64,000 nucleotides of DNA from Candidatus Nomurabacteria bacterium. GTDB taxonomy: Bacteria; Patescibacteriota; Patescibacteriia; HK-STAS-PATE-3. Below the pieces are notes generated by a model. The model was given only the letters and a program-made list of their open reading frames with translations, was not told the DNA's origin and searched no databases. The stretch lies in contig CP060223.1 in assembly GCA_023898465.1 (NCBI GenBank), positions 608,001 through 672,000 of the forward strand. The letters are read 5' to 3'. A program made the translations under genes and the position numbers. Shown piece after piece: positions 1 through 54,270 of this stretch (the first letter of the stretch is position 1; each line of letters starts with the position of its first letter).

Positions 1-1081
1 CTATGTTTTTGACGGATTAGAAAAAGGTAGCTACTGGCTAAATGAAACTATGCAAGACGGATGGGAACAAAGCTTCCCTCTTCTTGATCCGATTGGTCCG
101 TACAGCATTATCAGCGATGGCCAAGTGTTACAAGGAAGTGACTTTGGTAACCACGTAATTGATGATGGTGATAATCAAGGAGAGCGAACTCCTGTTATCA
201 CACTAGAGAAAGAGGCTCTGGCAAATGCTAGCGCAAGTGGTGCTAATGTTTCCTATCTCTTAAACTACACCGTTGCTGATGCTACAGCTACAAATCTGGT
301 CTTGGTAGATCAACTGCCACAGTACACAAACTTTATTAGCGCAAGTGACAGCGGCGTCTATGATGCAAATGCGCGAACAGTGACATGGAGCCTCGGCACA
401 GTGAATCCAGGCAGCTATTCTGTTTCCATCACCTTAGCGCTTGATGACACAATCCCGGATGGCACCGTGGTAACAAACACTGCCCTACTCTCCGGTGACC
501 GACTTACCCAAATCCAGGATAATGCAGAAGTGACTGTTTCATCTCAACCAGTCTTAAGCGTTGAAAAATTAGTAAACGTAAGTACAGCAAAAACTGGCGA
601 AACTCTGCTCTATACTGTTCGCATTAGCAACGAGGGTAGCGATGTTGCTCATAATGTTAGCTTGAGCGATGTACTGCCACAAGGATTCCTCACTACTGAA
701 AATAGCCTCGCCTCCTTCACTAAGAATTTGGGCGACCTGGCAGTTGGTGATTCCATTAGCACCTCATATGAAGTAACAGTCGGCAACAGCGTAAGCAGCG
801 GTGACTATGTAAACACTGCAACAGCCAGAGCTGACAACGCTGACCCAGTGACAGCAACTGCTACGGTAAGCGTCAGTGCTGGTCAAGTACTTGGCGTCTC
901 TGATGAAGCAAGTACAGAAGATACCAACACCGCGCAAGGTCAGGTGTTAGGTGCTGAGGACACGCTGCCAGAAACAGGTGCAGGAGTTATGGACTACCTC
1001 CTCCTCATCCTTGCTTCAGTAATTATTGTAGCTGGCGCGCTCACACTCCGCCGCAGCTACAGCCGCAGCCACCTTAACTAA
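1..1081 (+). CDS. Cell-wall-anchored surface protein (5'-partial) with DUF11-type repeat and C-terminal LPETG sorting signal
   Basis: The reading frame is open from the window edge, and the translated start has no signal peptide, so the gene begins upstream. It carries a DUF11-like motif (LLYTVRISNEGSDVAHNVSLSDVLPQGF). The C-terminus reads LPETG, then a hydrophobic stretch, then a basic tail (RRSYSRSHLN), which is a classic sortase substrate. Confidence 0.75.
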   Translation, partial: YVFDGLEKGSYWLNETMQDGWEQSFPLLDPIGPYSIISDGQVLQGSDFGNHVIDDGDNQGERTPVITLEKEALANASASGANVSYLLNYTVADATATNLVLVDQLPQYTNFISASDSGVYDANARTVTWSLGTVNPGSYSVSITLALDDTIPDGTVVTNTALLSGDRLTQIQDNAEVTVSSQPVLSVEKLVNVSTAKTGETLLYTVRISNEGSDVAHNVSLSDVLPQGFLTTENSLASFTKNLGDLAVGDSISTSYEVTVGNSVSSGDYVNTATARADNADPVTATATVSVSAGQVLGVSDEASTEDTNTAQGQVLGAEDTLPETGAGVMDYLLLILASVIIVAGALTLRRSYSRSHLN

Positions 1082-1087
1082 GAAACA

Positions 1088-2101
1088 ATGCGTACACGGC
1101 AAAACCTCACTGTCATCCTTATCACTTTAGGCCTTCTGACAGGAGGTTTTGCTTCTGCGCAGAGCATCGAGCGGCCAACCCAAACGCAAGTTCCAATTGT
1201 ACAGTTAGCGCTAGATGGCCCAAGCCAAGTAGATGCTGGGGCTACTTTTACCTACACACTTCGCTACTCAATTAGCGATTTCAGCACGAGTAATGTTGTC
1301 CTCTCTTTAGCGCTCCCGGCCCGAGCTATTCTGCTTGAGAATAGTGGTAATGGCGCAATCAACGATGTGACGCAAAGTGTAGAATGGAGTTACTCAAACA
1401 AGGAAATTGGCGACTATACCGAGACTGCCACATTTAGCGCCTTAACACCTGCGCCAAATGGTACGGAAATATCTTTTCAGGCAACACTAGACAGTGACGA
1501 GACTGAGGTAATTTCCGCGCAAGCAAACAGCGCAATAATGTCGAGCCCTAAGCTTGAATATCGCTCTCAGCTTTCCTCCCCTATTCTCCAGCCTGGTGGT
1601 GAAATAACCGTAACACTCACTATTGATAATTCTGGTTCTGATGATGCAAATGGTGTGCAATTACATGAAGTACTTCCAGAAGGACTGCATTCCGCTGATC
1701 AAGGAGAGTTGTCATACTCACTCGGCACAATTCCAGCTGGTCAGCAGGTCGAAGTAAGTTATCCGGTGCGCGCTGATGCAGGATTACTCAATCAAGAATA
1801 TATTGGCAAGTTAGCGTTAAGTGCTACAAATGTAGCAATGCAAACATCTGACCATATTTATATTGTTCGGCAGCCTCTCGTTCTAGGAGCAGAGGCTGAG
1901 GCTCTAAATCAAACAAGTCAGGAGTCTGCAGCTCAAGAAGGACAAGTACTCGGCGCAGAGACTGAGTTAAGTCCAACAGGTATGAGCTTCTGGGATTGGC
2001 TACTCATCTATGCTGCCGCTCTCTTATTAGCCCTAGGTGTAACGACTCTTATTTTCGCCCCTCACAGTAAAGAACACGATAAGCGCATTGAAGAAAAATA
2101 A
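1088..2101 (+). CDS. Secreted DUF11-repeat surface protein with non-canonical LSPTG sorting signal
   Basis: It has an N-terminal signal peptide (MRTRQNLTVILITLGLLTGGFASA) and a DUF11-like motif (ITVTLTIDNSGSDDANGVQLHEVLPEGL). The C-terminus is ...GQVLGAETELSPTG, followed by a TM helix and a charged tail. Its stop overlaps the sortase start (TAATG). Confidence 0.7.
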   Translation: MRTRQNLTVILITLGLLTGGFASAQSIERPTQTQVPIVQLALDGPSQVDAGATFTYTLRYSISDFSTSNVVLSLALPARAILLENSGNGAINDVTQSVEWSYSNKEIGDYTETATFSALTPAPNGTEISFQATLDSDETEVISAQANSAIMSSPKLEYRSQLSSPILQPGGEITVTLTIDNSGSDDANGVQLHEVLPEGLHSADQGELSYSLGTIPAGQQVEVSYPVRADAGLLNQEYIGKLALSATNVAMQTSDHIYIVRQPLVLGAEAEALNQTSQESAAQEGQVLGAETELSPTGMSFWDWLLIYAAALLLALGVTTLIFAPHSKEHDKRIEEK

Positions 2102-2793
2102 TGCCAAGCGATACCAAGGCCTCGGGGGAGCTCAAACAAACTAAGCAGAGCAGTAAGGCAATGCCACAGATTGGATGGAGTCAGCGACGACTTCGCACAG
2201 TGCGTATTCTGGCTATTGTACTTATTCTTATTGGAATTGGCGTTATCCTCTACCCCTTCTTCCCTGCCATTCGCTACGAGCTTTTTCATCCAGAACCCGC
2301 ATATCCCTACAGCACTAAACTACAAGAAACGAATGTCGAGGAAAATGGTGGACACCTCCCAGACGTTGCTGATACACTCCCCTCAGAAAGCCGCCTCGTC
2401 ATCCCAAAAATTGGGGTGAACATGCAGATTGTTGAAGGAGAGAATGAGTCCGCACTTTTCCGCGGATCATGGCGTTTGCCGCAAACTTCGACACCTGAAA
2501 AAGGCGGCAATACAGTCCTGACTGTGCATCGCTTCCAGTATCTCGCCGGACCCAATACCCTCGCCCTGGCTGATCGTTTAGAGGCTGGCGATATCGTGAT
2601 AGTGTATTGGAAAGGACAGGATGGACAAGTAAAAGAGTACGACTACCAAATAAGCAAAACGTATTTAGTCGACCCGCACCAGGTGGAAATCCTCGACAAC
2701 ACTGAGGAGCCTAAACTCACACTTTTCACCTGCGCCCCAATGTTTTCAACCAAACAACGACTCGTTATTGACGGAGCATTAATAGAAAATTAA
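2101..2793 (+). CDS. Sortase (transpeptidase)
   Basis: It has an N-terminal membrane anchor. The conserved His sits in VLTVHRF, the catalytic Cys in the TLxTC signature (KLTLFTCAP), and the Arg in KQRLVIDG. It lies immediately downstream of the two sorting-signal proteins. Confidence 0.8.
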   Translation: MPSDTKASGELKQTKQSSKAMPQIGWSQRRLRTVRILAIVLILIGIGVILYPFFPAIRYELFHPEPAYPYSTKLQETNVEENGGHLPDVADTLPSESRLVIPKIGVNMQIVEGENESALFRGSWRLPQTSTPEKGGNTVLTVHRFQYLAGPNTLALADRLEAGDIVIVYWKGQDGQVKEYDYQISKTYLVDPHQVEILDNTEEPKLTLFTCAPMFSTKQRLVIDGALIEN

Positions 2794-2805
2794 CTATTCA
2801 CCGAT

Positions 2806-3879
2806 ATGGCTATGACTAAACCGCAAACTGTTGGAGGGATGCGAACAATGTCGTGGCGAACTATGCTGAAAAGCATATTCATCGCTGCGTTCGTCTTAGT
2901 AAGTGCCAGCTGGACAAGCACCGTCCTGGCTGAAGAGGCAAATATTGACCTCGTAATCTCCCCTACTCAAGCAGGGATCACGGCGGGAGAAAGTATGCAA
3001 TTCAGCCTGCAGGCCACTAATCGCGATACTGGTGCAAGCTGGGATGCAACTAACTACGCGAGCTTTAGCACTACCGATCCAACCGGCACAATCACTGGGG
3101 GTCTTTATCAGGCTCGCAGTGCCGGGACCTGGACTATTAACGCTGACTACTCCGGCCGTACTATCAGCACGAAGGTAAATGTCACACCTGGCCCTGTTCA
3201 GCACATCGTAATTGATCCGAACTCTTATCCTGAGTATGTCACCGTGACGAAAGTGAAACAGTTCAGCGCTCGAGCCTATGACGCTTGGAATAACCAAATT
3301 TCAAATCCTGAGCTTCGTTGGTCATTAAGCGGAAATATCGGCACCCTCAGTACTGAGGGAGTCTTTACTGCTACGCAAGTTGGCGAAGGCACTATAACCG
3401 TAAGTTCTGAAACTGTCAGCGCCAAAGTAGACGTGGTTGGTCAAACCGCTCGAGTGGTAAATACAAATGTAAGCACTAGTAATGCCAACACATCAAATAG
3501 CAATGTGAGTGAAGAAAATGAGAGTACAAGCGGTGAAGTACTCGGTGAAAATGATGAAATGACTGGTGATGAAGAAATGATGACTGATGAGGAAGCGAAC
3601 GAAGCAAGTTGCTGGGATATCCACTGGTGGGGATGGCTACTCACTATGATCGTTTACTTCGTTCTCCTCTACGGATTCTACTACATGGTTCGAGGCACTG
3701 ATGACAGCTGGATCTGGATTGGACCCGTAGTTCTTACTGCCGCGGCTCTGGCAATCTTCTTTGCCTTCCGCTGCGACGGCACTGCAGCCTGGTTCCCCTG
3801 GCTAAGTATCATCGGCGGACTCTTGATCACGCTTTTCCGCCCATTAAAGTTCGTACCAAAAAACGGCGACTCTCTCTAA
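2806..3879 (+). CDS. Membrane-anchored surface protein (signal peptide, Ig-like/beta-rich ectodomain, acidic linker, C-terminal TM helices)
   Basis: It has a signal peptide. It carries an EVLGEN...MTG segment that resembles the QVLGAE...TG segment of the two upstream proteins. It has several C-terminal hydrophobic helices instead of an LPXTG motif. Confidence 0.5.
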   Translation: MAMTKPQTVGGMRTMSWRTMLKSIFIAAFVLVSASWTSTVLAEEANIDLVISPTQAGITAGESMQFSLQATNRDTGASWDATNYASFSTTDPTGTITGGLYQARSAGTWTINADYSGRTISTKVNVTPGPVQHIVIDPNSYPEYVTVTKVKQFSARAYDAWNNQISNPELRWSLSGNIGTLSTEGVFTATQVGEGTITVSSETVSAKVDVVGQTARVVNTNVSTSNANTSNSNVSEENESTSGEVLGENDEMTGDEEMMTDEEANEASCWDIHWWGWLLTMIVYFVLLYGFYYMVRGTDDSWIWIGPVVLTAAALAIFFAFRCDGTAAWFPWLSIIGGLLITLFRPLKFVPKNGDSL

Positions 3880-3933: not shown

Positions 3934-4749
3934 TTAAAGCCAGAATATGATAAGCAAGATGCCGAGTGCGATACGATACCAGGCAAATCCTCGTAAGGTG
4001 TGTGACTGAAAAAAACGAAGTAGGAAACGAATAGCAATAAGACCGGTAATGAAGGAGCTGGCAAAACCTAAAAGCATAGTAAATATCTCTTGACTGTCTA
4101 CGCCCTGGGATGCAAGCTCAGCTAAAACCTTCACTGCAGCCGCAAAGACAATCGGGACAGATAGCAAAAAGGAAAAGCGAGCTGCATCATAGTGACGTAA
4201 TCCAAGGAAGCGTCCTGCCACAATAGTGCTACCTGAACGGGAAATACCAGGCACCAGGGCTAAAGCTTGTGCTAAGCCAATCCAAATAACATCTTTAAAG
4301 GCAATGCTCTCCCCTGTGCGATTAGCCTCCTGACGATCTGCCCAGAAGAAAAAGAGACCGCCGATGAATAAAGTTACCCCAACGGAAACAGCGCTCCGGA
4401 ATGTATCAGCTAAGAAGGATTCAAAAAATAATCCAACGAGAGCGGCCGGAATACTGCCTACCACGAGATACCAAAACATACGACGTTCACGTGAATCTGA
4501 TTGATCAGGCCTCCGTGTTATTGATCGAATTCCTGCTAAGAAAATACGCCAAAGGTCGCGACGGAAAAAAACCAACAAGGCACATAAGGTACCCACGTGA
4601 AGAGCAACATCAAAAGCTAAAGCATCAGCAGCTGAAAAATCAGGCCAAATAGCATGGAGTACGACAAGATGACCAGAGCTCGATATTGGAAAGAATTCAG
4701 TAACCCCCTGCACTAGACCAAAGAGAATCGACAAGAGCGCATCAAACAT
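3934..4749 (-). CDS. uppP: Undecaprenyl-diphosphatase (BacA/UppP)
   Basis: The N-terminus (MFDALLSILFGLVQGVTEFFPISSSGHLVV) and the GISRSGSTI motif are characteristic of the UppP family. It is a multi-TM protein. Confidence 0.9.
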   Translation of the reverse strand: MFDALLSILFGLVQGVTEFFPISSSGHLVVLHAIWPDFSAADALAFDVALHVGTLCALLVFFRRDLWRIFLAGIRSITRRPDQSDSRERRMFWYLVVGSIPAALVGLFFESFLADTFRSAVSVGVTLFIGGLFFFWADRQEANRTGESIAFKDVIWIGLAQALALVPGISRSGSTIVAGRFLGLRHYDAARFSFLLSVPIVFAAAVKVLAELASQGVDSQEIFTMLLGFASSFITGLIAIRFLLRFFQSHTLRGFAWYRIALGILLIIFWL

Positions 4750-8612: not shown

Positions 8613-9293
8613 CTATTGAGGAAGGTTTTTCTGCTCAGGGTTAACCGGATAGACGTATGAAATAGCCTGGCCACTTAACCACCACGCAAAGCTCGCTACC
8701 ACGATTCCGGCTAATGGATCAAGCACATAGTGTTGCTTCAGGAGTACAGTGGAGAGGATGATGCTAAGTCCCAGTACTATGAAGAACGCTCGCCAATAAC
8801 GATTTCGCACTATGGTCAATGTCGAGAGCAATAATATGACAGTGGTGTAGGTATGACCTGATGGGAAGGAATTATACCGTCTCCCCTGCCCATAGACCCA
8901 CTTCAAAATTTGGTCAAAGCCGTTTTGAACTTCCAGATCTGGGCGTGGAACAGTTGATTGATAGCTTAAATAAATTATGTAAGCCATTACCACCGCGAAG
9001 AGCATGGCAAGCATGAAGCGAAGGTAGGCTTTTGGAAGTCGCCACAAGGTCCAAAGCACATAGGCTGCGCCCCAGCCAAAAAAGCCAAACACATAGACAA
9101 TGACAAATTCTGACACAATGGGAAGCTGATCATCAATAGGCAGCTTAAATGAATGCACTGTCCCCCAGGCTTGATTGATCGGAAAATATAGGGAAAAAAT
9201 TCCAGCCATTAAAACAAGAATTGCAAAACGACCTATGGGCGTACTTAGGTCGATGAAAAGCTTAGGTGATGTTTTTTTCTGCATGTGATTCAT
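8613..9293 (-). CDS. PAP2-family membrane phosphatase (candidate undecaprenyl-PP/lipid phosphatase)
   Basis: It has the PAP2 motifs PSGH (SFPSGHT) and the His/Asp region (KQHYVLDPLAG). It is multi-TM. Its start overlaps the uppS stop. Confidence 0.6.
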   Translation of the reverse strand: MNHMQKKTSPKLFIDLSTPIGRFAILVLMAGIFSLYFPINQAWGTVHSFKLPIDDQLPIVSEFVIVYVFGFFGWGAAYVLWTLWRLPKAYLRFMLAMLFAVVMAYIIYLSYQSTVPRPDLEVQNGFDQILKWVYGQGRRYNSFPSGHTYTTVILLLSTLTIVRNRYWRAFFIVLGLSIILSTVLLKQHYVLDPLAGIVVASFAWWLSGQAISYVYPVNPEQKNLPQ

Positions 9294-9979
9294 GAGCCGA
9301 AGCGACGTTGCCGCTTTTGAAAGTCTTGGATCACTCGAATAATATCACGTCGAGTCACGGCTGGCCAATGCTTCTTGAGAAAGAAAAATTCGGCGTATTC
9401 TGCTTGCCACAAGAGATAACCTGAGCTGCGCTGCTCGCCCGAAGTTCTTAGGATCAAGTCCGGCGACGGTAAATCTGGCTGATATAAATACTGGGCAATG
9501 GTTTTTTGATCTATCTTTTCAGCAGGAATTTTCTCCTTTACAATTTTTTTCACTGCATCAACAATCTCATTCCTCCCGCCATAATTCAAACAAAGCTGCA
9601 CAATACCTCGTTTGTTCTGAGCGGTCTTCTCTATAGCTGCCTGAAGTAGTTTTTGTAGCTTATTAGGAAATTCATCCATGCGACCAGACACACGGAGCTG
9701 GATACCCTGCTCATGAAAGCGATCAATCCGATCAGTTAATAGATGAGCAAACATGGCCAAGAGATATTGAACCTCACGTTTCGGGCGTGTCCAGTTTTCC
9801 GATGAAAAGCCCCAGAAGGTCATCACTTTTACGCCCTGGTCAATTGCCGCAAAACAAACCTCTTCGGTCACGTCAGCCCCACGACGGTGTCCTTCTAAGC
9901 TTGGCAAATGATTATCCTTTGCCCAGCGTCGGTTTCCGTCAGGGATAATCGCGATATGTTGGGGAACTTTCTGCGTCAT
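9290..9979 (-). CDS. uppS: Undecaprenyl-diphosphate synthase (cis-isoprenyl transferase)
   Basis: HIAIIPDGNRRWA is the signature N-terminal motif of the UPPS family. Confidence 0.9.
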   Translation of the reverse strand: MTQKVPQHIAIIPDGNRRWAKDNHLPSLEGHRRGADVTEEVCFAAIDQGVKVMTFWGFSSENWTRPKREVQYLLAMFAHLLTDRIDRFHEQGIQLRVSGRMDEFPNKLQKLLQAAIEKTAQNKRGIVQLCLNYGGRNEIVDAVKKIVKEKIPAEKIDQKTIAQYLYQPDLPSPDLILRTSGEQRSSGYLLWQAEYAEFFFLKKHWPAVTRRDIIRVIQDFQKRQRRFGS

Positions 9980-9981
9980 AA

Positions 9982-11079
9982 TTAAGCAGTACGATATACA
10001 CTTATATCGGCTAACACCGACAGCATGCTAGCACAATCAGCATCAATGTGTCGACTTTTTTGTAAAACTTGCTTGGCTTTCTCGGCCTGCGCATTTGCCA
10101 TGCTCTGCACCTCTTCCAGCGCCTTTGTCTTCCCGATAATGCGACGGACCTCTTTTATCTCTGTCTGCGTACGAACTGATTTTGCAAAAAGCGCATCAAG
10201 ATTCTGTCTATCTCGCTGTTTCAATTTTTTTCGGGCCCTTAAAATAATTTCGGTTACCTTCCCCTCTCGTATATCGTTCGAGGGTTTGCCACTGTGACGT
10301 TGCGGAGTAAAGCCCAATAAATCATCAGCTAATTGAAAACCAACGCCCACCGGGATCGCATAATGTTGAAGGTCTCGACGAGTCGCTGAATTCGCCCCTG
10401 CTAAAATTGCCCCCATGGTAAGTGGTAGCGAAAAAGTATATGAGGCAGTTTTCAGCTCTGCTATCGTCGTAATGACATTTTTATTTGTCCTATGCAACCA
10501 GGATTGCTCAATATCCATAAACTCGCCTACATAGGTTTCATGCTGAAGGCTTTTGAGTAAATACACAATCGCCTCCTGAAGCTTTTGAGCTGGCCAGCGC
10601 ATTAACATGAGATAGCGGAAAGCAAGTAGTGACGCATAATTTCCAGTAAACATTGCCATACTTACCCCTCGATGGTGTTTATCAGCACGGCTACCCGGAA
10701 TTGTCTTGCGAAAAGCCTCATGAACAGTTGATCCACCTCTACGAAATTCATCTCGATCAGCAATATCATCTAGGATAAGTAGGTAGTTATGCACTATCTC
10801 GATTACCGCAGCGAGTTGGGCTAGTTTTTTGGGAGCCCTCTTCCCTGTGCTTTCGTAGCCCAAATACACCAACATCGCGCGAACTCGTTTACTTGCCGGA
10901 CGCATAGTAAATTCCCTAAGCAGGTGAAAGCCTTGCTGAAGCGTTGGAGAATGCACTTTTTGCATGTGCACTGACTCGGCCTGAAAAATTTGTTTCAGGG
11001 CTTGATCAGTCTCTTGTCGAATGCGTATTTGCTTTTGCTTGAATCTGAGGGCAGCAGATGAATCTGATCGTGTGCTCAC
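9982..11079 (-). CDS. trans-Polyprenyl diphosphate synthase (FPP/GGPP-type)
   Basis: It has the first DDxxD motif (LILDDIADRD) and the second (FQLADDLLG). Confidence 0.8.
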   Translation of the reverse strand: MSTRSDSSAALRFKQKQIRIRQETDQALKQIFQAESVHMQKVHSPTLQQGFHLLREFTMRPASKRVRAMLVYLGYESTGKRAPKKLAQLAAVIEIVHNYLLILDDIADRDEFRRGGSTVHEAFRKTIPGSRADKHHRGVSMAMFTGNYASLLAFRYLMLMRWPAQKLQEAIVYLLKSLQHETYVGEFMDIEQSWLHRTNKNVITTIAELKTASYTFSLPLTMGAILAGANSATRRDLQHYAIPVGVGFQLADDLLGFTPQRHSGKPSNDIREGKVTEIILRARKKLKQRDRQNLDALFAKSVRTQTEIKEVRRIIGKTKALEEVQSMANAQAEKAKQVLQKSRHIDADCASMLSVLADISVYRTA

Positions 11080-11118: not shown

Positions 11119-11195
11119 TGGTCGGGGTGGGGAGACTCGAACTCCCGACCTCAGCGACCCGAACGCTGCGCGCTAGCCAACTGCGCTACACCCCG
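11119..11195 (-). tRNA. tRNA-Pro (anticodon CGG)
   Basis: I folded the reverse complement by hand. The acceptor stem is CGGGGTG/CACCCCG. The D-arm is GCGC-AGTTGGCTA-GCGC. The anticodon stem CAGCG/CGCTG carries the loop TTCGGGT. The T-arm is GGGAG-TTCGAGT-CTCCC and CCA is encoded. Confidence 0.8.
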
Positions 11196-27494: not shown

Positions 27495-27568
27495 TGGCAG
27501 GGGCGGAAGGTGTCGAACCCTCGTTACCGGTTTTGGAGACCGGTGTTCTACCGTTGAACTACGCCCCC
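27495..27568 (-). tRNA. tRNA-Trp (anticodon CCA)
   Basis: I folded it by hand. The D-arm is GTTC-AACGGTA-GAAC. The anticodon stem CCGGT/ACCGG carries the loop CTCCAAA. The T-arm is GAGGG-TTCGACA-CCTTC. The acceptor stem has a G1-U72 wobble and CCA is encoded. Confidence 0.75.
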
Positions 27569-27592
27569 ACAGATTCGTAGAATCAATGAAGA

Positions 27593-27748
27593 CTATTTTG
27601 TCTCTTTATGGAGAGTATGCTTTTTGCACCACTTACAGTGCTTTTTCATCTCAAGTCGACCTTTGAGGGTCTTCTTGTTTTTGAAGCTGTGATAGTTGGT
27701 GCGCTTGCACACCGTGCATTCCAGCTTAATAAGATTATCTTGGGACAT
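27593..27748 (-). CDS. rpmG: 50S ribosomal protein L33
   Basis: I translated it by hand as [51 protein letters not shown]. It is a 51 aa CxxC...CxxC zinc ribbon. It falls below the 60 aa cutoff of the ORF track. Confidence 0.85.
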
Positions 27749-27787
27749 AGCAGTATATTATTTATGCGTATATTCTTGCCGACCGCC

Positions 27788-27863
27788 TGGAGCCGATGGT
27801 CGGATTCGAACCGACGACCTTCACTTTACAAAAGTGTTGCTCTACCAACTGAGCTACATCGGC
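27788..27863 (-). tRNA. tRNA-Thr (anticodon UGU)
   Basis: The acceptor stem is GCCGATG/CATCGGC. The D-arm is GCTC-AGTTGGTA-GAGC. The anticodon loop is TTTGTAA. The T-arm is GTCGG-TTCGAAT-CCGAC and CCA is encoded. Confidence 0.85.
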
Positions 27864-27880
27864 GCCCGGCGCTTGGCAAG

Positions 27881-28189
27881 TTATGAAAGCTCTAAGCGAG
27901 GAAAAATATCGATGGCTGGTTCTTCATAAGGGTGCGCCTGCTTCAACGCTATTATTACCTCCTCTACTTTTTCCTTATGACAGAGCATGCGAATCACTTC
28001 CTCTTCCACAATCTCTTCCTGACCAATCTCCCCTATGGCAGGATGCGCTCCCTCTTGCGGGATGAAACGTCCAGTAGTGCGATAGCTTCCACTACAGTGT
28101 GAATAGTTGCCCATCTTCCCTGCGCCAGCATCACCCATTGCCTTACGAACTGCATCAGCTTGGGGCACTGGCACCGAGGTGCGAATCAT
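27881..28189 (-). CDS. NIF3-family fragment ORF (motif GNYSHC...HPYEEP only; ~100 aa, lacks the rest of a NIF3 protein)
   Basis: The translation MIRTSVPVPQADAVRKAMGDAGAGKMGNYSHCSGSYRTTGRFIPQEGAHPAIGEIGQEE...HPYEEPAIDIF matches a conserved segment I recall from YqfO/YbgI-type NIF3 proteins. The ORF is open up to 28264 but would run into element B. A full NIF3 is 250-370 aa. Confidence 0.45.
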   Translation of the reverse strand: MIRTSVPVPQADAVRKAMGDAGAGKMGNYSHCSGSYRTTGRFIPQEGAHPAIGEIGQEEIVEEEVIRMLCHKEKVEEVIIALKQAHPYEEPAIDIFPRLELS

Positions 28190-28228
28190 AACGTATTCTG
28201 ATTCTTGAAGTGACATAAGGAATAGAGT

Positions 28229-28456
28229 GCAAACGCCGAAGACTTGGGATTTTTGGGGCTCCATTTGAAACCAAGGATCTCGAGCCTGTCGAAAGAGACT
28301 GTTTCAAATGAGGAAAGGGACATGCGCCGTAAGGGCTTTCAAACGCCGAGCGCTTGGGCCGACAGGTTAAGTGCGAGGCGTAAAGGCACACGCTGGCAAA
28401 GGGTGGAGTGTTCTCGTTTTAACGAGGACACGCAACCCGCAGCCAGCGATGGGCCG
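28229..28456. repeat. Conserved GC-rich structured element, copy B (candidate ncRNA or tRNA-linked repeat)
   Basis: It is the second copy of element A, at roughly 70% identity, and abuts the 3' end of tRNA-Tyr. The hairpin equivalent to the one in copy A is TTTGAAAC(28264-71)/GTTTCAAA(28301-08). Three base pairs differ from copy A in a compensatory way. It also contains an internal partial duplication of its 5' block. Confidence 0.5.
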
Positions 28457-28543
28457 TGGTGGGCCGGGTAGGATTCGAACCTACGAAGGCGCAAGGCCAG
28501 CAGATTTACAGTCTGCCCCCGTTGACCGCTTGGGTACCGACCC
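28457..28543 (-). tRNA. tRNA-Tyr (anticodon GUA), class II with long variable arm
   Basis: The anticodon stem GCAGA/TCTGC carries the loop CTGTAAA. The variable arm is 15 nt. The T-arm is GTAGG-TTCGAAT-CCTAC. The acceptor stem is GGGTCGG/CCGGCCC and CCA is encoded. Confidence 0.8.
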
Positions 28544-28571
28544 TCATGTGAGGAAATGATCTCACCACTCC

Positions 28572-28647
28572 TGGAGCCGATGAGCGGATTTGAACCGCTG
28601 ACCTACTCCTTACCATGGAGTTGCTCTACCAACTGAGCTACATCGGC
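28572..28647 (-). tRNA. tRNA-Thr (anticodon GGU)
   Basis: The acceptor stem is GCCGATG/CATCGGC. The anticodon stem ACTCC/GGAGT carries the loop ATGGTAA. The T-arm is AGCGG-TTCAAAT-CCGCT and CCA is encoded. Confidence 0.85.
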
Positions 28648-47735: not shown

Positions 47736-49262
47736 TCAGTCAACCAGCACTTCCCTCCTATCAAAGTGCTGTTCGCAGTAGTGGCAGGCCAGGACTTCCC
47801 GCCCTTCTCCGTTCACATGAAAGTGAGGATAGAGCGCTGCCTCCGCATCACACCTGGTCACGCAAGCCGGGTTGGGACAAGATCCGATACCGGTGATCTC
47901 ACGCACGGTCGCCACCCGCCGCTTCGTTAGCACACCATCACGAATTTCGTTGATGGTCACTTGAGGCACCAAGATGCCGATGGCAGAGAGCTCCCTTGCA
48001 TTCAAGAAAACATCTTCCAGCCGGAGCGTATCCTTCTTGCCGCCCTGACCATTAGACCGCAGTCCCTGATCAAGTCCCACGTAGTGCGCATTTGGATCCA
48101 GACCGAGCACCGACTGAATCCTCCTGCCAAAACCTACAGGCAAATGATCAAGTACCGTCCCGTTACTGATGGGCAAGAAGCGCTGCTGCGCCAACTGCTT
48201 GCGAGCAATCGCTTCATCAGCCGACCCACTTCGCACATCCTCGATCTCCGGCCCAATCACCTCAAGAGGTGTCTCCGCACAGCGACTATGGAGCGCCTCA
48301 TTCAAAAGGGCCATCCTGATCGGCACGCCGTTCGCTGCCTGAGCGTCGATGATGACTCGTGGGTCACCGAGGACAGAAGGATGAATCTCATTGTCACCGA
48401 TCGGCAGGGGGTGCATCACCAAGACCTTAGACCCAAGCATGTCTAGGGCCGCCTGGTCAATCGTGAAACGACCGGCAACCCTGTGGTATTCGTACTCGCT
48501 CGGGAAACGCTCTCGTTGCACCCGAGTCGCATAGACCAAGTGGCACCCTGCCAGCGTCTCCAAATCACTCGCCACGGTGACATTGTACATGCCTCTCGTA
48601 TACCACCACTGCAACTGTGCTTCCGGTGCTGAGACTAGTACAATCTCCACACCCTCTAGCAGGCGCAGTGCGCGAATCAAGGAATGCACCGTGCGAGAAT
48701 ACTTGAAATCACCCACGAAACCAATCTTGAAACCATTCAGTCGACCCAAATGGCGCCGAATGGTGTAGAGATCAAGAAGGGTCTGGCTGGGATGCTCATT
48801 CGCACCGTCGCCAGCATTGAGTACGCAGAGTTGCATACCTCGCCGTGCAGCCATCTCAGCCACCCAACGAGGAGCACCCTCCACTTTTGTCCGCATCACC
48901 AGGGCTGACCCATTGTAGCCGCAGAACATTCGTGCGGTTGCCCCGAGTGTCTCCCCCTTTACCAAGGAAGTTCCCTCGGCCCCTGAGGTCAGCACATGCG
49001 GCAGACCCAGCAGACGCGCTGCCTCCTCGAATGATCCGGCGGTCCTAGTGCTCGGCTCTCCAAAGAGAAGCCGCACAACACCTTGATCGCTAACACTCGG
49101 CAAAGGCTCGCCCTTCTCCCAAGTCATTCGATAGGACTCAGCACTTGCCAAAACCCCATCGATGAAAGGAAGATCGAAATCACCAACCGAGATCACATGC
49201 TTCACTGCTTGCCTCCTTGTCAACCCAAGCAACAACTTCGATGTTAAACACAGAAGGTTCAC
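47736..49262 (-). CDS. pyrBI: Aspartate carbamoyltransferase catalytic chain fused to regulatory chain (PyrB-PyrI single polypeptide)
   Basis: Residues 1-330 carry the STRT carbamoyl-phosphate motif (FGEPSTRTAGSFE) and the HPxQ motif (HPSQTLLDLYTI). Residues ~355-508 match PyrI (GTVLDHLP, zinc domain CPNPAC...CHYCEQHF). The frame has no internal stop. The gene is about 58% GC. Confidence 0.7.
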   Translation of the reverse strand: MNLLCLTSKLLLGLTRRQAVKHVISVGDFDLPFIDGVLASAESYRMTWEKGEPLPSVSDQGVVRLLFGEPSTRTAGSFEEAARLLGLPHVLTSGAEGTSLVKGETLGATARMFCGYNGSALVMRTKVEGAPRWVAEMAARRGMQLCVLNAGDGANEHPSQTLLDLYTIRRHLGRLNGFKIGFVGDFKYSRTVHSLIRALRLLEGVEIVLVSAPEAQLQWWYTRGMYNVTVASDLETLAGCHLVYATRVQRERFPSEYEYHRVAGRFTIDQAALDMLGSKVLVMHPLPIGDNEIHPSVLGDPRVIIDAQAANGVPIRMALLNEALHSRCAETPLEVIGPEIEDVRSGSADEAIARKQLAQQRFLPISNGTVLDHLPVGFGRRIQSVLGLDPNAHYVGLDQGLRSNGQGGKKDTLRLEDVFLNARELSAIGILVPQVTINEIRDGVLTKRRVATVREITGIGSCPNPACVTRCDAEAALYPHFHVNGEGREVLACHYCEQHFDRREVLVD

Positions 49263-53473: not shown

Positions 53474-54163
53474 TTATTTTAGCACTTCTTGTACAGTCTT
53501 CCAGACTTGCTCAGCAATATGTTCGCGATCCTGCATCACGCCATTTTTGGTACACGTTATCACCTTCCAGGAAAAACGTGCTGATAAGCGATGCGCCATT
53601 TCCCAACTCGTCTGCTGATGACGTTTATTCTTTTCCAGACTATCGACAGCCTTTCCGCCCAGGTAATTACGATGACCTTTTGCTCGTACGAGCTTACGTC
53701 CTATGGTATGCGGCACGGAGAGAAAAACAGTCAGATCAGGCTTGAGCACTCCAAGTATGTGATACTCCATTTCTTCTAACCAATGGAGATACTCCTTCTG
53801 CTCCAAAGCTGTTTGAAACTTGGCCGCCTGATGCATCATGCTTGAGGAAGTATAGCGATTACAGACAACTACTTTCCCTTGCGCTAACCATTTATTCAAC
53901 TGATCCTTTGCCTGCCAACGATCAAGTGCATACAAGAGTGAGGCAAGATAAGGATTCACTTTTAGTGTCGGTCCAAATTTGCCCTGAATGAATTGACCGA
54001 CCATGGCCCCAAAGAAACTTTCATCATAACGAGGAAAATCAGCTAAGGCAGTCTGATACCCCTGCTTTTTTAGACGCTGAATAAGGAGACCAGCTTGCGT
54101 TGCCTTGCCAGATCCATCCACCCCGTCGAGTACGATCAGTTTTCCGCTTTGCTTCTTTTTCAC
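53474..54163 (-). CDS. tmk: Thymidylate kinase
   Basis: Its P-loop is LIVLDGVDGSGKATQAGLL, matching the Tmk signature. It has a DR(Y/W) motif region. Confidence 0.75.
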   Translation of the reverse strand: MKKKQSGKLIVLDGVDGSGKATQAGLLIQRLKKQGYQTALADFPRYDESFFGAMVGQFIQGKFGPTLKVNPYLASLLYALDRWQAKDQLNKWLAQGKVVVCNRYTSSSMMHQAAKFQTALEQKEYLHWLEEMEYHILGVLKPDLTVFLSVPHTIGRKLVRAKGHRNYLGGKAVDSLEKNKRHQQTSWEMAHRLSARFSWKVITCTKNGVMQDREHIAEQVWKTVQEVLK

Positions 54164-54223
54164 AGGCCAAGTTTAGCATACGCAAGAGCCAAATTCCAAG
54201 TTTTTTATCCAATGATGCATCAC

Positions 54224-54252
54224 TTGAAAAAAGCTGTAAAAACACCTACAAT
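54224..54252 (+). promoter_or_regulatory. sigma70-like promoter of the thyX-like gene
   Basis: It is TTGAAA, a 17 nt spacer and TACAAT, 18 nt upstream of the ATG at 54271. Confidence 0.45.
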
Positions 54253-54270
54253 CCCCATGCTTTTCCGCTA

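What the first reader, a model, noticed from the sequence alone, without database searches (positions are those of the whole stretch)
1..3879. Sortase locus whose substrates share an extended (Q/E)VLGAE pre-motif and use LPETG and the atypical LSPTG
Two DUF11-repeat surface proteins lie immediately upstream of a sortase, and the second protein's stop overlaps the sortase start. Their C-terminal sorting signals are ...GQVLGAEDTLPETG and ...GQVLGAETELSPTG, each followed by a TM helix and a basic tail. The conserved GQVLGAE block 2-3 residues before the pentapeptide is not part of the classical LPXTG signal. The second pentapeptide, LSPTG, has a small residue at position 2 and Pro at position 3, which is closer to LAxTG (class E-like) than to LPxTG. 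A third downstream protein carries a related EVLGENDEMTG segment but ends in polytopic TM helices rather than an LPXTG motif. Together these suggest a lineage-specific extended recognition motif for this sortase.
Basis: partly seen in the sequence, partly recalled or inferred. Interest (0 to 1): 0.5.

Follow-up and report, generated by a model that had tools for sequence, protein, structure and literature searches.

The report
CPR sortase operon, extended sorting signal
This is a four-gene surface-protein anchoring operon from an ultra-small (Patescibacteria/CPR) bacterium whose cargo proteins carry a longer, clade-specific version of the classical LPXTG sorting signal, including a conserved "VLG" block that is real but is not proven to be read by the enzyme.

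Summary
Window 1-3879 holds a tight operon: two CLIPPER/DUF11 stalk proteins, a sortase and an Ig-like/3-TM membrane protein. The two stalk proteins end in ...GQVLGAEDT-LPETG and ...GQVLGAETE-LSPTG, each followed by a TM helix and a tail. The substrate-2 stop overlaps the sortase start (TAATG). The organism is a Patescibacteria MAG.

The sortase belongs to a CPR-specific clade and fails every NCBIfam class A-F cutoff.

In 47 related loci, 46 of 65 sortase-adjacent substrates have VLG within 12 residues of the pentapeptide, against 1.2% of background windows. The clade signal is [G/P]xVLG, then 0-7 residues, L-x-x-T-G, x[G/S]xx[D/E], a TM helix and a basic tail. Position 2 is nearly free (A, P, V, T, E, S, G). 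LSPTG is therefore one tolerated variant, not a class-E hallmark.

VLG is not exclusive to the cleavage site. It also sits in the linker before the last CLIPPER domain. It recurs in the juxtamembrane linker of the conserved downstream protein, which lacks any conserved xTG.

The "lineage-specific pre-motif" is supported. "Extended recognition motif" remains unproven; I favour a docking or juxta-anchor linker motif. This is a new variant of a known kind, of moderate interest.

The parts
2..1081 (+). Substrate 1, C-terminal 359 codons of a 790-aa secreted CLIPPER/DUF11 stalk protein (the gene starts upstream of the window)
   Evidence: In-frame translation; DUF11 at 78.3 bits; full gene with signal peptide in L001 4677-7049
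884..901 (+). VLG block 1 of substrate 1 (QVLGVS), directly after the last beta-strand of the last CLIPPER domain
941..958 (+). VLG block 2 of substrate 1 (QVLGAE), 3 residues before the pentapeptide
   Evidence: invariant in alignment A3
965..979 (+). Pentapeptide LPETG of substrate 1 (predicted cleavage between T and G)
   Evidence: cleavage is inferred from sortase family chemistry
980..1078 (+). Rest of sorting signal 1: AGVMD (the clade's x-G-x-x-D), TM helix 995-1048, basic tail RRSYSRSHLN 1049-1078
   Evidence: clade consensus x[GS]xx[DE]
1088..2101 (+). [quoted passage not shown]
   Evidence: DUF11 at 40.5 bits; AF2 model with sandwiches 37-151 and 156-260 and TM helix 301-322
1877..1894 (+). 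VLG block 1 of substrate 2 (LVLGAE, residues 264-269), just after the last strand (249-260)
1943..1960 (+). VLG block 2 of substrate 2 (QVLGAE), in the pLDDT<50 linker, 4 residues before the pentapeptide
1967..1981 (+). Pentapeptide LSPTG of substrate 2
   Evidence: orthologues have LTETG (L002) and LPASG (L003)
1982..2098 (+). Rest of sorting signal 2: MSFWD, TM 1997-2056, tail APHSKEHDKRIEEK. Orthologues share F[AY]P[HF]SK instead of an Arg cluster.
2101..2793 (+). Sortase, 230 aa. N-terminal TM (2200-2253), conserved juxtamembrane YPFxPxIxY..PxPxxPYxT segment (2251-2322), catalytic His143 (within 2521-2535), Cys211 (within 2722-2739), Arg220 (within 2752-2766). The start overlaps the substrate-2 stop.
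   Evidence: PF04203 at 72 bits; no class cutoff reached; invariant H/C/R; AF2 pLDDT 83 and sortase barrel; overlap
2806..3879 (+). Sortase-linked membrane protein ('protein 4'), 357 aa: signal peptide, two Ig-like domains (Big_2 in a relative), N/S/T-rich linker with GEVLGE (3535-3552), then a 3-TM domain. The TM domain has invariant Cys269 (within 3607-3618), Cys323 (within 3766-3780) and W-F-P-W (3790-3801).
   Evidence: Immediately downstream (<170 nt) of the sortase in 19 related loci and 1.7-4.9 kb downstream in 9 more. 26 full-length family representatives. Big_2 in L027.

Best explanation
What it is (shown). Window 1-3879 is a co-directional, tightly packed operon from a Patescibacteria (CPR) genome labelled 'Candidatus Nomurabacteria' by NCBI. 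It encodes four proteins:
- two secreted CLIPPER/DUF11 beta-sandwich stalk proteins;
- a membrane-anchored sortase from a CPR-specific clade that fits none of the curated classes A-F;
- a conserved partner protein with Ig-like domains and a three-helix membrane domain.

How it works (inferred from sortase family chemistry, not shown here). Both stalk proteins are exported by Sec and held in the membrane by their C-terminal helix and charged tail. The sortase Cys211 then attacks the Thr-Gly bond of LPETG / LSPTG. The Thr carboxyl is passed to a peptidoglycan precursor, which fixes the stalks to the wall.

The sorting signal (shown by comparison). The signal used by this clade is longer and differently weighted than the classical one. 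It reads [G/P]-x-V-L-G, then 0-7 residues, then L-x-x-T-G, then x-[G/S]-x-x-[D/E], then a TM helix and a basic tail. Only Leu, Thr and Gly of the pentapeptide are constrained.

The VLG block (shown). VLG is a true short linear motif of this system, conserved at peptide level in predicted disordered linker. It is not confined to the cleavage site. It also precedes the last CLIPPER domain, and it occurs in the juxtamembrane linker of the partner protein.

My commitment on its role (inferred, roughly 35-40% likely). VLG is a docking or positioning element bound outside the active-site groove by the sortase or by a sortase-partner complex. It is not extra residues of the pentapeptide read by the catalytic cleft. 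The main alternative is a passive stalk-linker motif that merely travels with the terminal domain and anchor module.
For: Operon and domains.

Organism and clade: all 101 sortase homologues and all 80 genomic loci are Patescibacteria MAGs or unlabelled metagenome sequences.

Sortase class:
- The catalytic triad is invariant.
- Class models fall far below cutoff: C 63.5/160, E 53.2/160, D 52.7/165, F 17.5/166. No class A or B model matched at E<=0.1.
- The best solved relatives are class C (81 bits), yet 0/37 homologues have a DP[FWY] lid or a C-terminal TM.
- The fold is a generic sortase barrel, about equally close to classes C, A and E.

Sorting signal statistics:
- 65 substrates from 47 loci were curated.
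- VLG lies in the 14-aa window in 46/65, against 1.2% background.
- V[LKQRA][GAS] occurs in 61/65, against 6.1% background.
- Thr is present in 62/65, Gly in 65/65, Leu at position 1 in 55/65.
- Position 2 is A27/P17/V9/T5/E3.
- [GS] is at +3 in 54/65 and [DE] at +6 in 61/65.

Other VLG evidence:
- The pentapeptide-proximal GQVLGA is invariant while the pentapeptide drifts.
- VLG is also present on a non-CLIPPER cargo, L044 with DUF4215.
- About 35 of 61 internal VLGs sit in '...VxVRVPQ-VLG-ETTxP-xLxIxK' just before the last domain.
- Ten non-CPR CLIPPER proteins show no VLG at their domain junctions, by inspection.
- AF2 places VLG#1 just past the last strand and VLG#2 in pLDDT<50 linker.
- The copies use different codons and there is no DNA repeat.

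Partner protein:
- It is syntenic directly downstream of the sortase in 19 loci.
- A V[LAK]G[AETD]-type block preceded by Gly lies in the linker of 15/26 family representatives (13 by regex plus 2 close variants). The same regex gives 1 hit in 5,527 body residues.

Precedent: residues flanking the pentapeptide matter for B. anthracis SrtB (PMC11987632).
Against: - No biochemical evidence exists for this clade. Cleavage site, nucleophile and any VLG contact are all inferred.
- VLG-to-pentapeptide spacing varies from -2 to +7, with outliers at 8-13. Two spacings coexist in one locus, for example VLG-LATTG and VLGAEDE-LPATG in L009. This is awkward for any fixed binding geometry.
- 19/65 substrates lack strict VLG. 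Substrates next to more distant CPR sortases (L052, L068, L076) lack it altogether.
- The occurrence at an internal domain junction fits a purely structural or evolutionary linker role equally well.
- The comparison set consists almost entirely of CLIPPER cargo next to the sortase gene, so the motif and the cargo family are confounded. Only one non-CLIPPER cargo carries VLG.
- The sequences are phylogenetically related, so the enrichment P-values are inflated.
- The AF2 model of substrate 2 used only 14 sequences.
Confidence: 0.65

Rival explanations
1. First reader's reading. (Q/E)VLGAE is part of an extended recognition sequence that the sortase active-site region reads together with the pentapeptide. 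This compensates for the weak, variable pentapeptide (LPETG, LSPTG and others).
For: VLG is more conserved than the pentapeptide among orthologues. It is strongly enriched in position. It lies in disordered linker rather than in the fold. It is present on one non-CLIPPER cargo. Within individual subclades the spacing is fixed: VLGLATTG in 14 proteins, and RVLG[EA]xVDTG in the L024/L026/L028/L030 group. Flanking residues matter for baSrtB.
Against: Spacing differs between substrates of the same locus (0 versus 4). The motif also occurs about 160 residues upstream, and in the partner protein without any xTG. It is absent from 19/65 substrates. Known sortase-peptide complexes engage essentially the pentapeptide (background knowledge).
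Confidence: 0.2
2. VLG is only a structural or evolutionary by-product. On this view it is a CPR-specific inter-domain linker of CLIPPER stalks that flanks the terminal domain. It ends up next to the pentapeptide because these proteins have no long wall-spanning spacer, and it plays no part in sorting.
For: About 35 internal VLGs lie at the junction before the last CLIPPER domain, with the same [P/G]-x-VLG-[AE]-[ET] context. The first VLG copy always follows the last strand. Nearly all cargo in the comparison set is CLIPPER-type.
Against: A second VLG copy, detached from any domain, is kept right before the pentapeptide in at least 11 proteins, and it is the best conserved element. The motif is present on DUF4215 cargo. 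It is present in the low-complexity linker of the Big_2-type partner protein in 15/26 divergent representatives. An 81-aa protein with no passenger domain still carries it (P0103). The non-CPR CLIPPER proteins retrieved here lack it at their junctions.
Confidence: 0.3
3. The locus is a pilus-like polymerisation cassette. A class-C-like sortase would join the two stalk proteins covalently, with the odd LSPTG / F-x-P-x-SK signal marking a basal subunit.
For: The best sequence and structure matches are class C pilus sortases. The sortase sits in an operon with two or three dedicated substrates. These carry two distinct signal subtypes, including a conserved special tail in the sortase-proximal one.
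Against: The class C model scores 63.5 against 160. No DP[FWY] lid and no C-terminal TM appear in 0/37 homologues. No pilin-type domains were detected, and I did not screen for a YPKN pilin motif or E-box. CLIPPER domains are described as stalks of monomeric fibrillar adhesins (10.1101/2025.04.25.650565).
Confidence: 0.08
4. VLG is a protease or shedding site (V at -3 and G/A/S at -1, as in the signal-peptidase rule) that releases the stalks or the partner ectodomain.
For: The accepted variants are VLG, VKG, VQG, VRG, VAG, VLA and VLS. All lie in exposed linkers near the membrane. In Actinobacteria, signal peptidase and sortase are functionally linked through SafA (PMC9282373).
Against: Leu at the middle position is itself strongly conserved (55/61), which the -3/-1 rule does not predict. 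There is no preceding hydrophobic h-region. There is no evidence of processing. This explanation is purely pattern-based.
Confidence: 0.05

Closest known systems
Classical LPXTG cell-wall sorting (class A sortase with a tripartite sorting signal)
   Same: N-terminal signal peptide on the cargo. C-terminal pentapeptide ending in TG, a hydrophobic helix and a charged tail. A membrane-anchored Cys transpeptidase with the His-Cys-Arg triad and TLxTC-type motif (LTLFTC).
   Different: No class A model matches the enzyme. Position 2 of the pentapeptide is not restricted to Pro. There is a conserved VLG block upstream and x[GS]xx[DE] downstream. Both curated anchor models miss the signals: TIGR01167 scores 15.1 against 15.9 for substrate 1 and gives no hit for substrate 2; PF00746 scores 16.4 against 20.
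Class E sortases of Actinobacteria (LAXTG) with the downstream sortase-associated factor SafA
   Same: N-terminally anchored enzyme without a lid. Many clade substrates have Ala at position 2 (LATTG, LAATG, LAETG; about 25/65). [quoted passage not shown] PGAP names some homologues 'class E sortase'.
   Different: The class E HMM scores 53 against 160. The loop I take to be beta3/beta4 (LPQTSTPEKGG) has no conserved Tyr. The same loci also use P, T, S, E and V at position 2. The partner is a 320-530-aa Ig-like plus 3-TM protein, not a 52-aa single-pass peptide. The FPW resemblance is three residues and remains untested.
Class C pilus-specific sortase gene clusters
   Same: Highest sequence and structural similarity. 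A dedicated sortase is embedded among its own substrates, which carry distinct signal subtypes.
   Different: No lid and no C-terminal anchor, and the HMM is below cutoff. The cargo consists of CLIPPER stalk proteins rather than recognised pilins.
Sortase B recognition beyond the pentapeptide (B. anthracis SrtB; PMC11987632)
   Same: [quoted passage not shown]
   Different: A different class and motif (NPKTG). There the flanking residues are immediately adjacent. No separate, repositionable upstream block has been described.
CLIPPER (DUF11) fibrillar-adhesin stalk domains (10.1101/2025.04.25.650565)
   Same: Tandem CnaA-like beta-sandwiches followed by a sorting domain. Substrate 1 shows the A-strand Lys context (PVLSVEK) and the ADN context typical of isopeptide-forming repeats.
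   Different: That survey does not mention CPR. Its sortase-motif regexes (LP.T[GAND], LA.TG and others) would miss LSPTG, LTETG, LVDTG, TVDTG and LEETG. The VLG junction motif is not seen in the non-CPR CLIPPER proteins retrieved here.

Membership tests
Sortase superfamily (PF04203 / peptidase C60) | Pfam domain above the gathering score | tested here: met
   72.2 bits against 26.6; TIGR01076 at 55.7 against 39.35
Sortase superfamily (PF04203 / peptidase C60) | Catalytic His-Cys-Arg triad with a TLxTC-type motif | tested here: met
   H143, C211 (LTLFTC) and R220 are invariant in 37 homologues
Sortase superfamily (PF04203 / peptidase C60) | Eight-stranded beta-barrel fold | tested here: met
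   AF2 pLDDT 83. Foldseek gives E about 1e-12 to 1e-13 and TM about 0.6-0.77 (normalised to target) against solved sortases
Class A (housekeeping) sortase | Match to a curated class A model, with substrates restricted to LPXTG | tested here: not met
   No class A model matched at E<=0.1. Clade substrates carry A, V, T, E, S or G at position 2.
Class C (pilus) sortase | NF033745 above cutoff | tested here: not met
   63.5 bits against 160
Class C (pilus) sortase | Lid with a DP[FWY] motif before the catalytic domain, and a C-terminal TM anchor | tested here: not met
   0/37 homologues have either feature
Class E sortase | NF033747 above cutoff | tested here: not met
   53.2 bits against 160
Class E sortase | Substrates with LAXTG (Ala at P3) | tested here: inconclusive
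   The window substrates are LPETG and LSPTG. Clade-wide, Ala occupies this position in 27/65 but Pro in 17/65, and both occur within single loci.
Class E sortase | Conserved Tyr in the beta3/beta4 loop (PMC5148588) | tested here: inconclusive
   The loop assigned from the AF2 model (residues 126-136, LPQTSTPEKGG) has no conserved Tyr in alignment A1. No structure-based alignment to SrtE1 was possible.
Class D / F / GN sortases | Curated model above cutoff | tested here: not met
   D 52.7/165, SrtD 57.7/140, F 17.5/166, GN 38.9/158
LPXTG cell-wall anchor domain (TIGR01167 / PF00746) | Curated model above cutoff | tested here: not met
   Substrate 1: 15.1 against 15.9 and 16.4 against 20. Substrate 2: no hit.
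LPXTG cell-wall anchor domain (TIGR01167 / PF00746) | Tripartite architecture: xxxTG pentapeptide, hydrophobic helix, charged tail at the extreme C-terminus of a secreted protein | tested here: met
   Read directly from the sequence. AF2 gives a helix at residues 301-322 in substrate 2.
LPXTG cell-wall anchor domain (TIGR01167 / PF00746) | Cleavage at T|G and amide linkage to peptidoglycan | not testable with these tools
   Needs biochemistry or mass spectrometry
CLIPPER / DUF11 (PF01345) | Pfam domain above the gathering score | tested here: met
   78.3 bits (two stretches) and 40.5 bits against 24.6. TIGR01451 gives 48.9 and 24.9 against 24.
CLIPPER / DUF11 (PF01345) | Intramolecular Lys-Asn isopeptide bond | not tested
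   Sequence context only: PVLSVEK and ADN in substrate 1. The equivalent A-strand position of substrate 2 reads PKLEYR.
SafA (sortase-associated factor, Actinobacteria) | Small single-pass protein encoded immediately downstream of the sortase, with an exoplasmic FPW motif that binds the sortase TM | tested here: inconclusive
   Position downstream of the sortase is met in 19 loci. A W[FWVI]PW motif at the predicted exoplasmic start of the last helix is conserved. Size and architecture differ completely, no sequence comparison with SafA was possible, and binding is untested.

The most novel reading that the evidence does not exclude
In this CPR sortase clade, cargo selection may have shifted from the pentapeptide, which has decayed to L-x-x-T-G, to a separate docking motif, G-x-V-L-G-[A/E]-[E/T], that binds an exosite. 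The conserved downstream Ig-like/3-TM protein carries the same motif but no cleavable site. It would then act as an uncleavable pseudo-substrate or SafA-like scaffold that holds or regulates the sortase at the membrane. This would be a docking-motif-driven sortase system, not described for classes A-F in the literature I could search.
Probability: 0.2. Interest if true: 0.65.

Novelty: new variant of a known kind. Interest (0 to 1): 0.45.

Why it matters
Patescibacteria (CPR) bacteria may account for a large share of bacterial diversity and live attached to other cells, so how they display surface proteins is central to their biology. Sortases are known to be enriched in CPR (PMC6744442). I found no description of their sorting signals in the searchable literature.

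The practical consequence is this. The clade's signal (VLG ... L-x-x-T-G ... x-G-x-x-D) falls below the curated LPXTG anchor models. It is also missed by the regexes commonly used for sortase motifs. CPR wall-anchored adhesins are therefore likely under-annotated.

A dedicated HMM for this roughly 45-residue C-terminal domain, paired with the sortase clade and its conserved membrane partner, would give a usable marker for CPR surface proteomes. If VLG proves to be a docking motif, it would also be a new handle for sortase specificity and for orthogonal sortase-ligation tools.

Tried and rejected
1. Same-genome test for other VLG-bearing substrates. The 64-kb window has none. A profile of 27 C-terminal signals against the 5.8-billion protein set returned only 2 hits, probably through HMMER bias filtering of the TM segment. 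A profile of the last 200 residues returned 13 hits and no further protein from the 1,082,586-bp contig. The test could not be run.

2. Metagenome DNA pattern scan for VLGAE-xx-LPxTG. It returned 55 loci, of which only 3 are real signals (L096, L115, L118). The rest are chance matches or wrong-frame matches.

3. 'VLG is a DNA repeat or recombination cassette'. Rejected: there is no DNA repeat at these sites and the five copies use different codons.

4. 'VLG is the vestigial A-strand of a lost CLIPPER repeat'. Substrate 1 suggested this (PVLSVEK against QVLGVSD). I dropped it because at internal junctions VLG precedes a separate, complete A-strand: VLG-ETTxP-xLxIxK.

5. 'VLG is the second half of the last beta-strand'. 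AF2 does not support this, with the caveat of a shallow alignment.

6. Class C and class E membership. Both rejected.

7. Foldseek of substrate 2. It gave only generic tandem Ig-like stalk plus TM matches such as integrin legs.

8. Rfam and tRNA scans. Nothing relevant to the locus.

9. Literature string searches for VLGAE, VLGLATTG and similar. No relevant paper.

10. My recollection that gut Clostridia carry 'VLGARR...TGD' C-termini could not be tested.

Full report
**1. What is in the window**

The ORF table and in-frame translations show four co-directional genes with almost no intergenic space.
- Substrate 1 occupies 2..1081 and enters from the left edge.
- A 6-nt gap separates it from substrate 2 (1088..2101).
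- The sortase (2101..2793) has a start codon that shares one base with the preceding stop (TAATG).
- A 12-nt gap separates the sortase from a fourth gene (2806..3879).

An identical 17-kb Logan contig (L001) supplies the missing 5' part. Substrate 1 is 790 aa with a signal peptide and several CLIPPER/DUF11 repeats. NCBI labels the identical sortase 'MAG: Candidatus Nomurabacteria bacterium', on a contig of 1,082,586 bp. The organism is therefore a Patescibacteria/CPR bacterium.

**2.

Both upstream proteins score as DUF11, now called CLIPPER: 78.3 and 40.5 bits against a cutoff of 24.6.
- GQVLGAEDT-LPETG-AGVMD-TM-RRSYSRSHLN
- GQVLGAETE-LSPTG-MSFWD-TM-APHSKEHDKRIEEK.

Each also has a second VLG about 20 residues upstream, right after the last beta-strand (QVLGVS and LVLGAE). 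The fourth protein contains GEVLGENDEMTGD followed by three TM helices.

Across the 64-kb window, the motif occurs five times in these three genes. Elsewhere it appears only in three short ORFs of 32-87 aa. The copies use different synonymous codons and no DNA repeat underlies them. The conservation is therefore at peptide level.

**3. The sortase**

It has PF04203 (72 bits) and the invariant His143/Cys211/Arg220 triad with LTLFTC. The AF2 model (pLDDT 83) is a standard sortase barrel behind an N-terminal TM helix.

It does not classify.
- NCBIfam class models score C 63.5/160, E 53.2/160, D 52.7/165 and F 17.5/166. No class A or B model matched at E<=0.1.
- The best solved relatives by profile are class C enzymes (81 bits), ahead of SrtE1 (53) and streptococcal SrtA (about 48).
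- Foldseek finds classes C, A and E about equally close.
- None of 37 homologues has the class C lid motif DP[FWY] or a C-terminal anchor.
- The loop I assign as beta3/beta4 lacks the conserved Tyr that class E enzymes use to read Ala at P3 (PMC5148588).

All 101 detectable homologues come from Patescibacteria or from unlabelled metagenomes. The clade has its own conserved juxtamembrane segment, YPFxPxIxYxxFxPxPxxPYxT. That CPR genomes are rich in sortases is already known (PMC6744442).

**4. The sorting signal across the clade**

A scan of one genome per species returned 80 loci, all Patescibacteria MAGs. I extracted every ORF ending in [TS]G + hydrophobic helix + K/R tail. I kept the 65 that lie on the sortase strand and end at or just before the sortase gene, covering 47 loci.

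Anchored on the scissile Thr, the signal looks like this:
- Thr in 62/65 and Gly in 65/65.
- Leu at position 1 in 55/65.
- Position 2 is A27/P17/V9/T5/E3, and position 3 is E19/T15/D12.

The pentapeptides seen include LATTG (14), LPETG (8), LAETG (6), LAATG (5) and TVDTG (3). Also present are LTETG, LVDTG, LPDTG, AVDTG, LEETG, LPQTG, LPASG, LGITG, LAPTG, LPPTG and LSPTG. LSPTG is unique to the window, but it lies inside this spread. The orthologues of substrate 2 in the two closest loci read LTETG and LPASG.

Downstream, [G/S] at +3 (54/65) and [D/E] at +6 (61/65) are nearly fixed.

Upstream, VLG lies within 12 residues of, or overlaps, the pentapeptide in 46/65 proteins (33/47 loci). The background rate in the same proteins is 1.2% of windows. 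The looser V[LKQRA][GAS] occurs in 61/65, against 6.1%. The motif is preceded by [G/P]-x.

The VLG-to-pentapeptide spacing distribution is:

| Spacing (residues) | -2 | 0 | 1 | 2 | 3 | 4 | 5-7 |
|---|---|---|---|---|---|---|---|
| Proteins | 2 | 14 | 7 | 8 | 3 | 8 | 1 each |

In an alignment of the last 200 residues of the window proteins and their closest relatives, the pentapeptide-proximal GQVLGA is invariant. The passenger domains in the same alignment are only 24-47% identical, and the pentapeptide itself varies.

**5. VLG is not only a pre-pentapeptide motif**

Three further contexts emerged.

(a) Internal junctions. The substrate bodies contain 61 VLGs where composition predicts about 30. 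Roughly 35 of these sit at one place, the linker before the last CLIPPER domain. There the sequence reads '...VEVRVPQ-VLG-ETTxP-xLxIxKTV', that is, VLG, a short linker, and then the complete A-strand of the next domain (also P0106). The terminal domain is thus flanked by VLG on both sides. The ten non-CPR CLIPPER proteins retrieved show no VLG at their junctions (by inspection).

(b) Non-CLIPPER contexts. A DUF4215 cargo (L044) has GEVLGEATTR-LPETG. An 81-aa protein with no passenger domain reads signal peptide-GSVLGED...LPFTG-TM-RRRSRD (P0103).

(c) The fourth gene. This is covered in section 6.

The AF2 model of substrate 2 (pLDDT 78.6) has two beta-sandwiches (37-151 and 156-260) and a last strand at 249-260. 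VLG#1 (265-267) lies just beyond the fold at pLDDT about 59. VLG#2 (287-289) lies in a pLDDT<50 linker. A TM helix spans 301-322. VLG therefore behaves as a short linear motif in flexible, wall-proximal linkers, not as a core structural element.

**6. The fourth gene is a conserved partner**

tblastn finds homologues in 28 related loci. In 19 of them the gene starts within 170 nt of the sortase stop. An exhaustive search found 2,181 proteins at E<=1e-3. Most of these are giant Ig-repeat proteins that match only the Ig-like domains. 26 are full-length family representatives.

The family has the following features:
- a signal peptide;
- two or three Ig-like domains (Big_2 in L027);
- a low-complexity N/S/T-rich linker;
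- a three-helix membrane domain with two invariant Cys and nearly invariant W-x-P-W at the predicted outer face of the last helix.

In the otherwise unconserved linker, 15 of 26 representatives carry G-x-V-[L/A/K]-G-[A/E/T/D]-[E/D/S]. The regex found 13, and two more end in -EN or -EQ. The same regex gives one hit in 5,527 residues of their Ig-like bodies.

There is a known parallel. In Actinobacteria the gene immediately downstream of the class E housekeeping sortase encodes SafA. SafA is a small membrane protein whose exoplasmic FPW motif binds the sortase TM and shields it from signal peptidase (PMC9282373). The positional parallel and the [F/W]PW parallel are leads only.

**7. Interpretation**

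Shown:
- the operon;
- the CPR-specific, unclassified sortase clade;
- the extended and re-weighted sorting signal;
- the wide tolerance at pentapeptide positions 2 and 3;
- the recurrence of VLG in three linker contexts of proteins encoded around this sortase.

Inferred from family chemistry: cleavage at T|G and transfer to a peptidoglycan precursor.

The role of VLG is open. A rigid 'longer recognition sequence' fits poorly, given the variable spacing and the copies that have no pentapeptide. A purely passive linker also fits poorly. That view does not explain the detached second copy kept next to the pentapeptide, the invariance of that copy, or its SLiM-like recurrence in the partner's low-complexity linker.

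I therefore favour a docking or positioning motif bound outside the catalytic groove by the sortase or by a sortase-partner complex, at about 35-40%. The passive-linker explanation comes second at about 30%. A pilus-like polymerisation cassette and a protease site are minor alternatives. There is precedent that residues flanking the pentapeptide matter, in B. anthracis SrtB (PMC11987632).

**8. Novelty and limits**

No paper in the searchable library describes sorting signals of CPR sortases or these strings. The CLIPPER survey does not cover CPR, and its motif regexes would miss many of these pentapeptides. The curated anchor models miss both window substrates. This is a new variant of a known kind of system, not a new kind.

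The limits are these:
- The comparison set is confounded by cargo family.
- The sequences are related, so P-values are inflated.
- The same-genome test and any enzyme-peptide co-folding could not be run.
- The metagenome pattern scan added only three real examples.

Noticed in passing
window 2806-3879 (+); homologues in L002-L035 directly after the sortase: A conserved sortase-linked protein family: signal peptide, 2-3 Ig-like domains, a low-complexity linker and a 3-TM domain. The TM domain has two invariant Cys and W-x-P-W at the predicted outer face of the last helix. By position and motif it resembles the actinobacterial sortase-associated factor SafA (FPW), but it is about seven times larger.
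   Followed up: partly
window 3934-4749 (-), about 8613-9293 (-), about 9290-9979 (-), 9982-11079 (-); relatives e.g. L004 5283-5867: Genes for the undecaprenyl lipid carrier cluster beside the sortase operon: BacA/UppP, a PAP2 phosphatase, UppS and a polyprenyl synthase. Many related loci instead carry a DUF212 'divergent PAP2' gene 1-2 kb downstream of the sortase. This may be a functional link between anchoring and lipid-II carrier recycling.
   Followed up: partly
window 2371-2394 (+), sortase residues 91-98: The sortase's own pre-catalytic linker reads DTLPSESR, next to RLVIPKIG. Across the clade it is [L/I/V]-P-x-[D/E]-[N/S]-R, which resembles the substrates' DT-LPETG. It could be a cis pseudo-substrate or lid-like segment. 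AF2 confidence there is low (pLDDT 55-63).
   Followed up: no
window 1982-2098 (+); L002 6879-7976; L003 7062-7997: The sortase-proximal small substrate forms its own orthogroup with a distinct signal subtype. The pentapeptide drifts (LSPTG, LTETG, LPASG), followed by x-[S/T]-F-x-D-W-L, and the tail is F-[A/Y]-P-[H/F]-S-K instead of an Arg cluster. It may be a poorly cleaved or membrane-retained base component.
   Followed up: partly
window 1991-2006 vs 3628-3643: The only DNA-level similarity between substrate 2 and the fourth gene is a 16-nt match. It encodes WDWLL (pre-TM of substrate 2) against WGWLL (TM1 of the fourth protein). This is consistent with TM1 of the partner resembling a sorting-signal helix, but it may be coincidence.
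   Followed up: no
P0103 (JGI, 81 aa); L115 around 3394: A minimal 81-aa protein consists only of signal peptide, GSVLGED, a short linker, LPFTG, a TM helix and RRRSRD. A metagenome protein has tandem VLGAET...VLGAET-S-LPATG. Both show the motif without a CLIPPER domain immediately attached.
   Followed up: no
window 47736-49262 (-): A single 507-aa ORF combines aspartate carbamoyltransferase catalytic domains (OTCace_N and OTCace) with the regulatory chain (PyrI and PyrI_C). This is a PyrB-PyrI fusion.
   Followed up: no
window 54100-55974 (+): An unusually long (624-aa, TTG start) ThyX/Thy1 protein with two matched stretches. It may be duplicated or fused.
   Followed up: no
window 27495-28647 (-): A cluster of four tRNA genes (Trp-CCA, Thr-TGT, Tyr-GTA, Thr-GGT). 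A separate tRNA-Pro(CGG) lies at 11119-11195.
   Followed up: no
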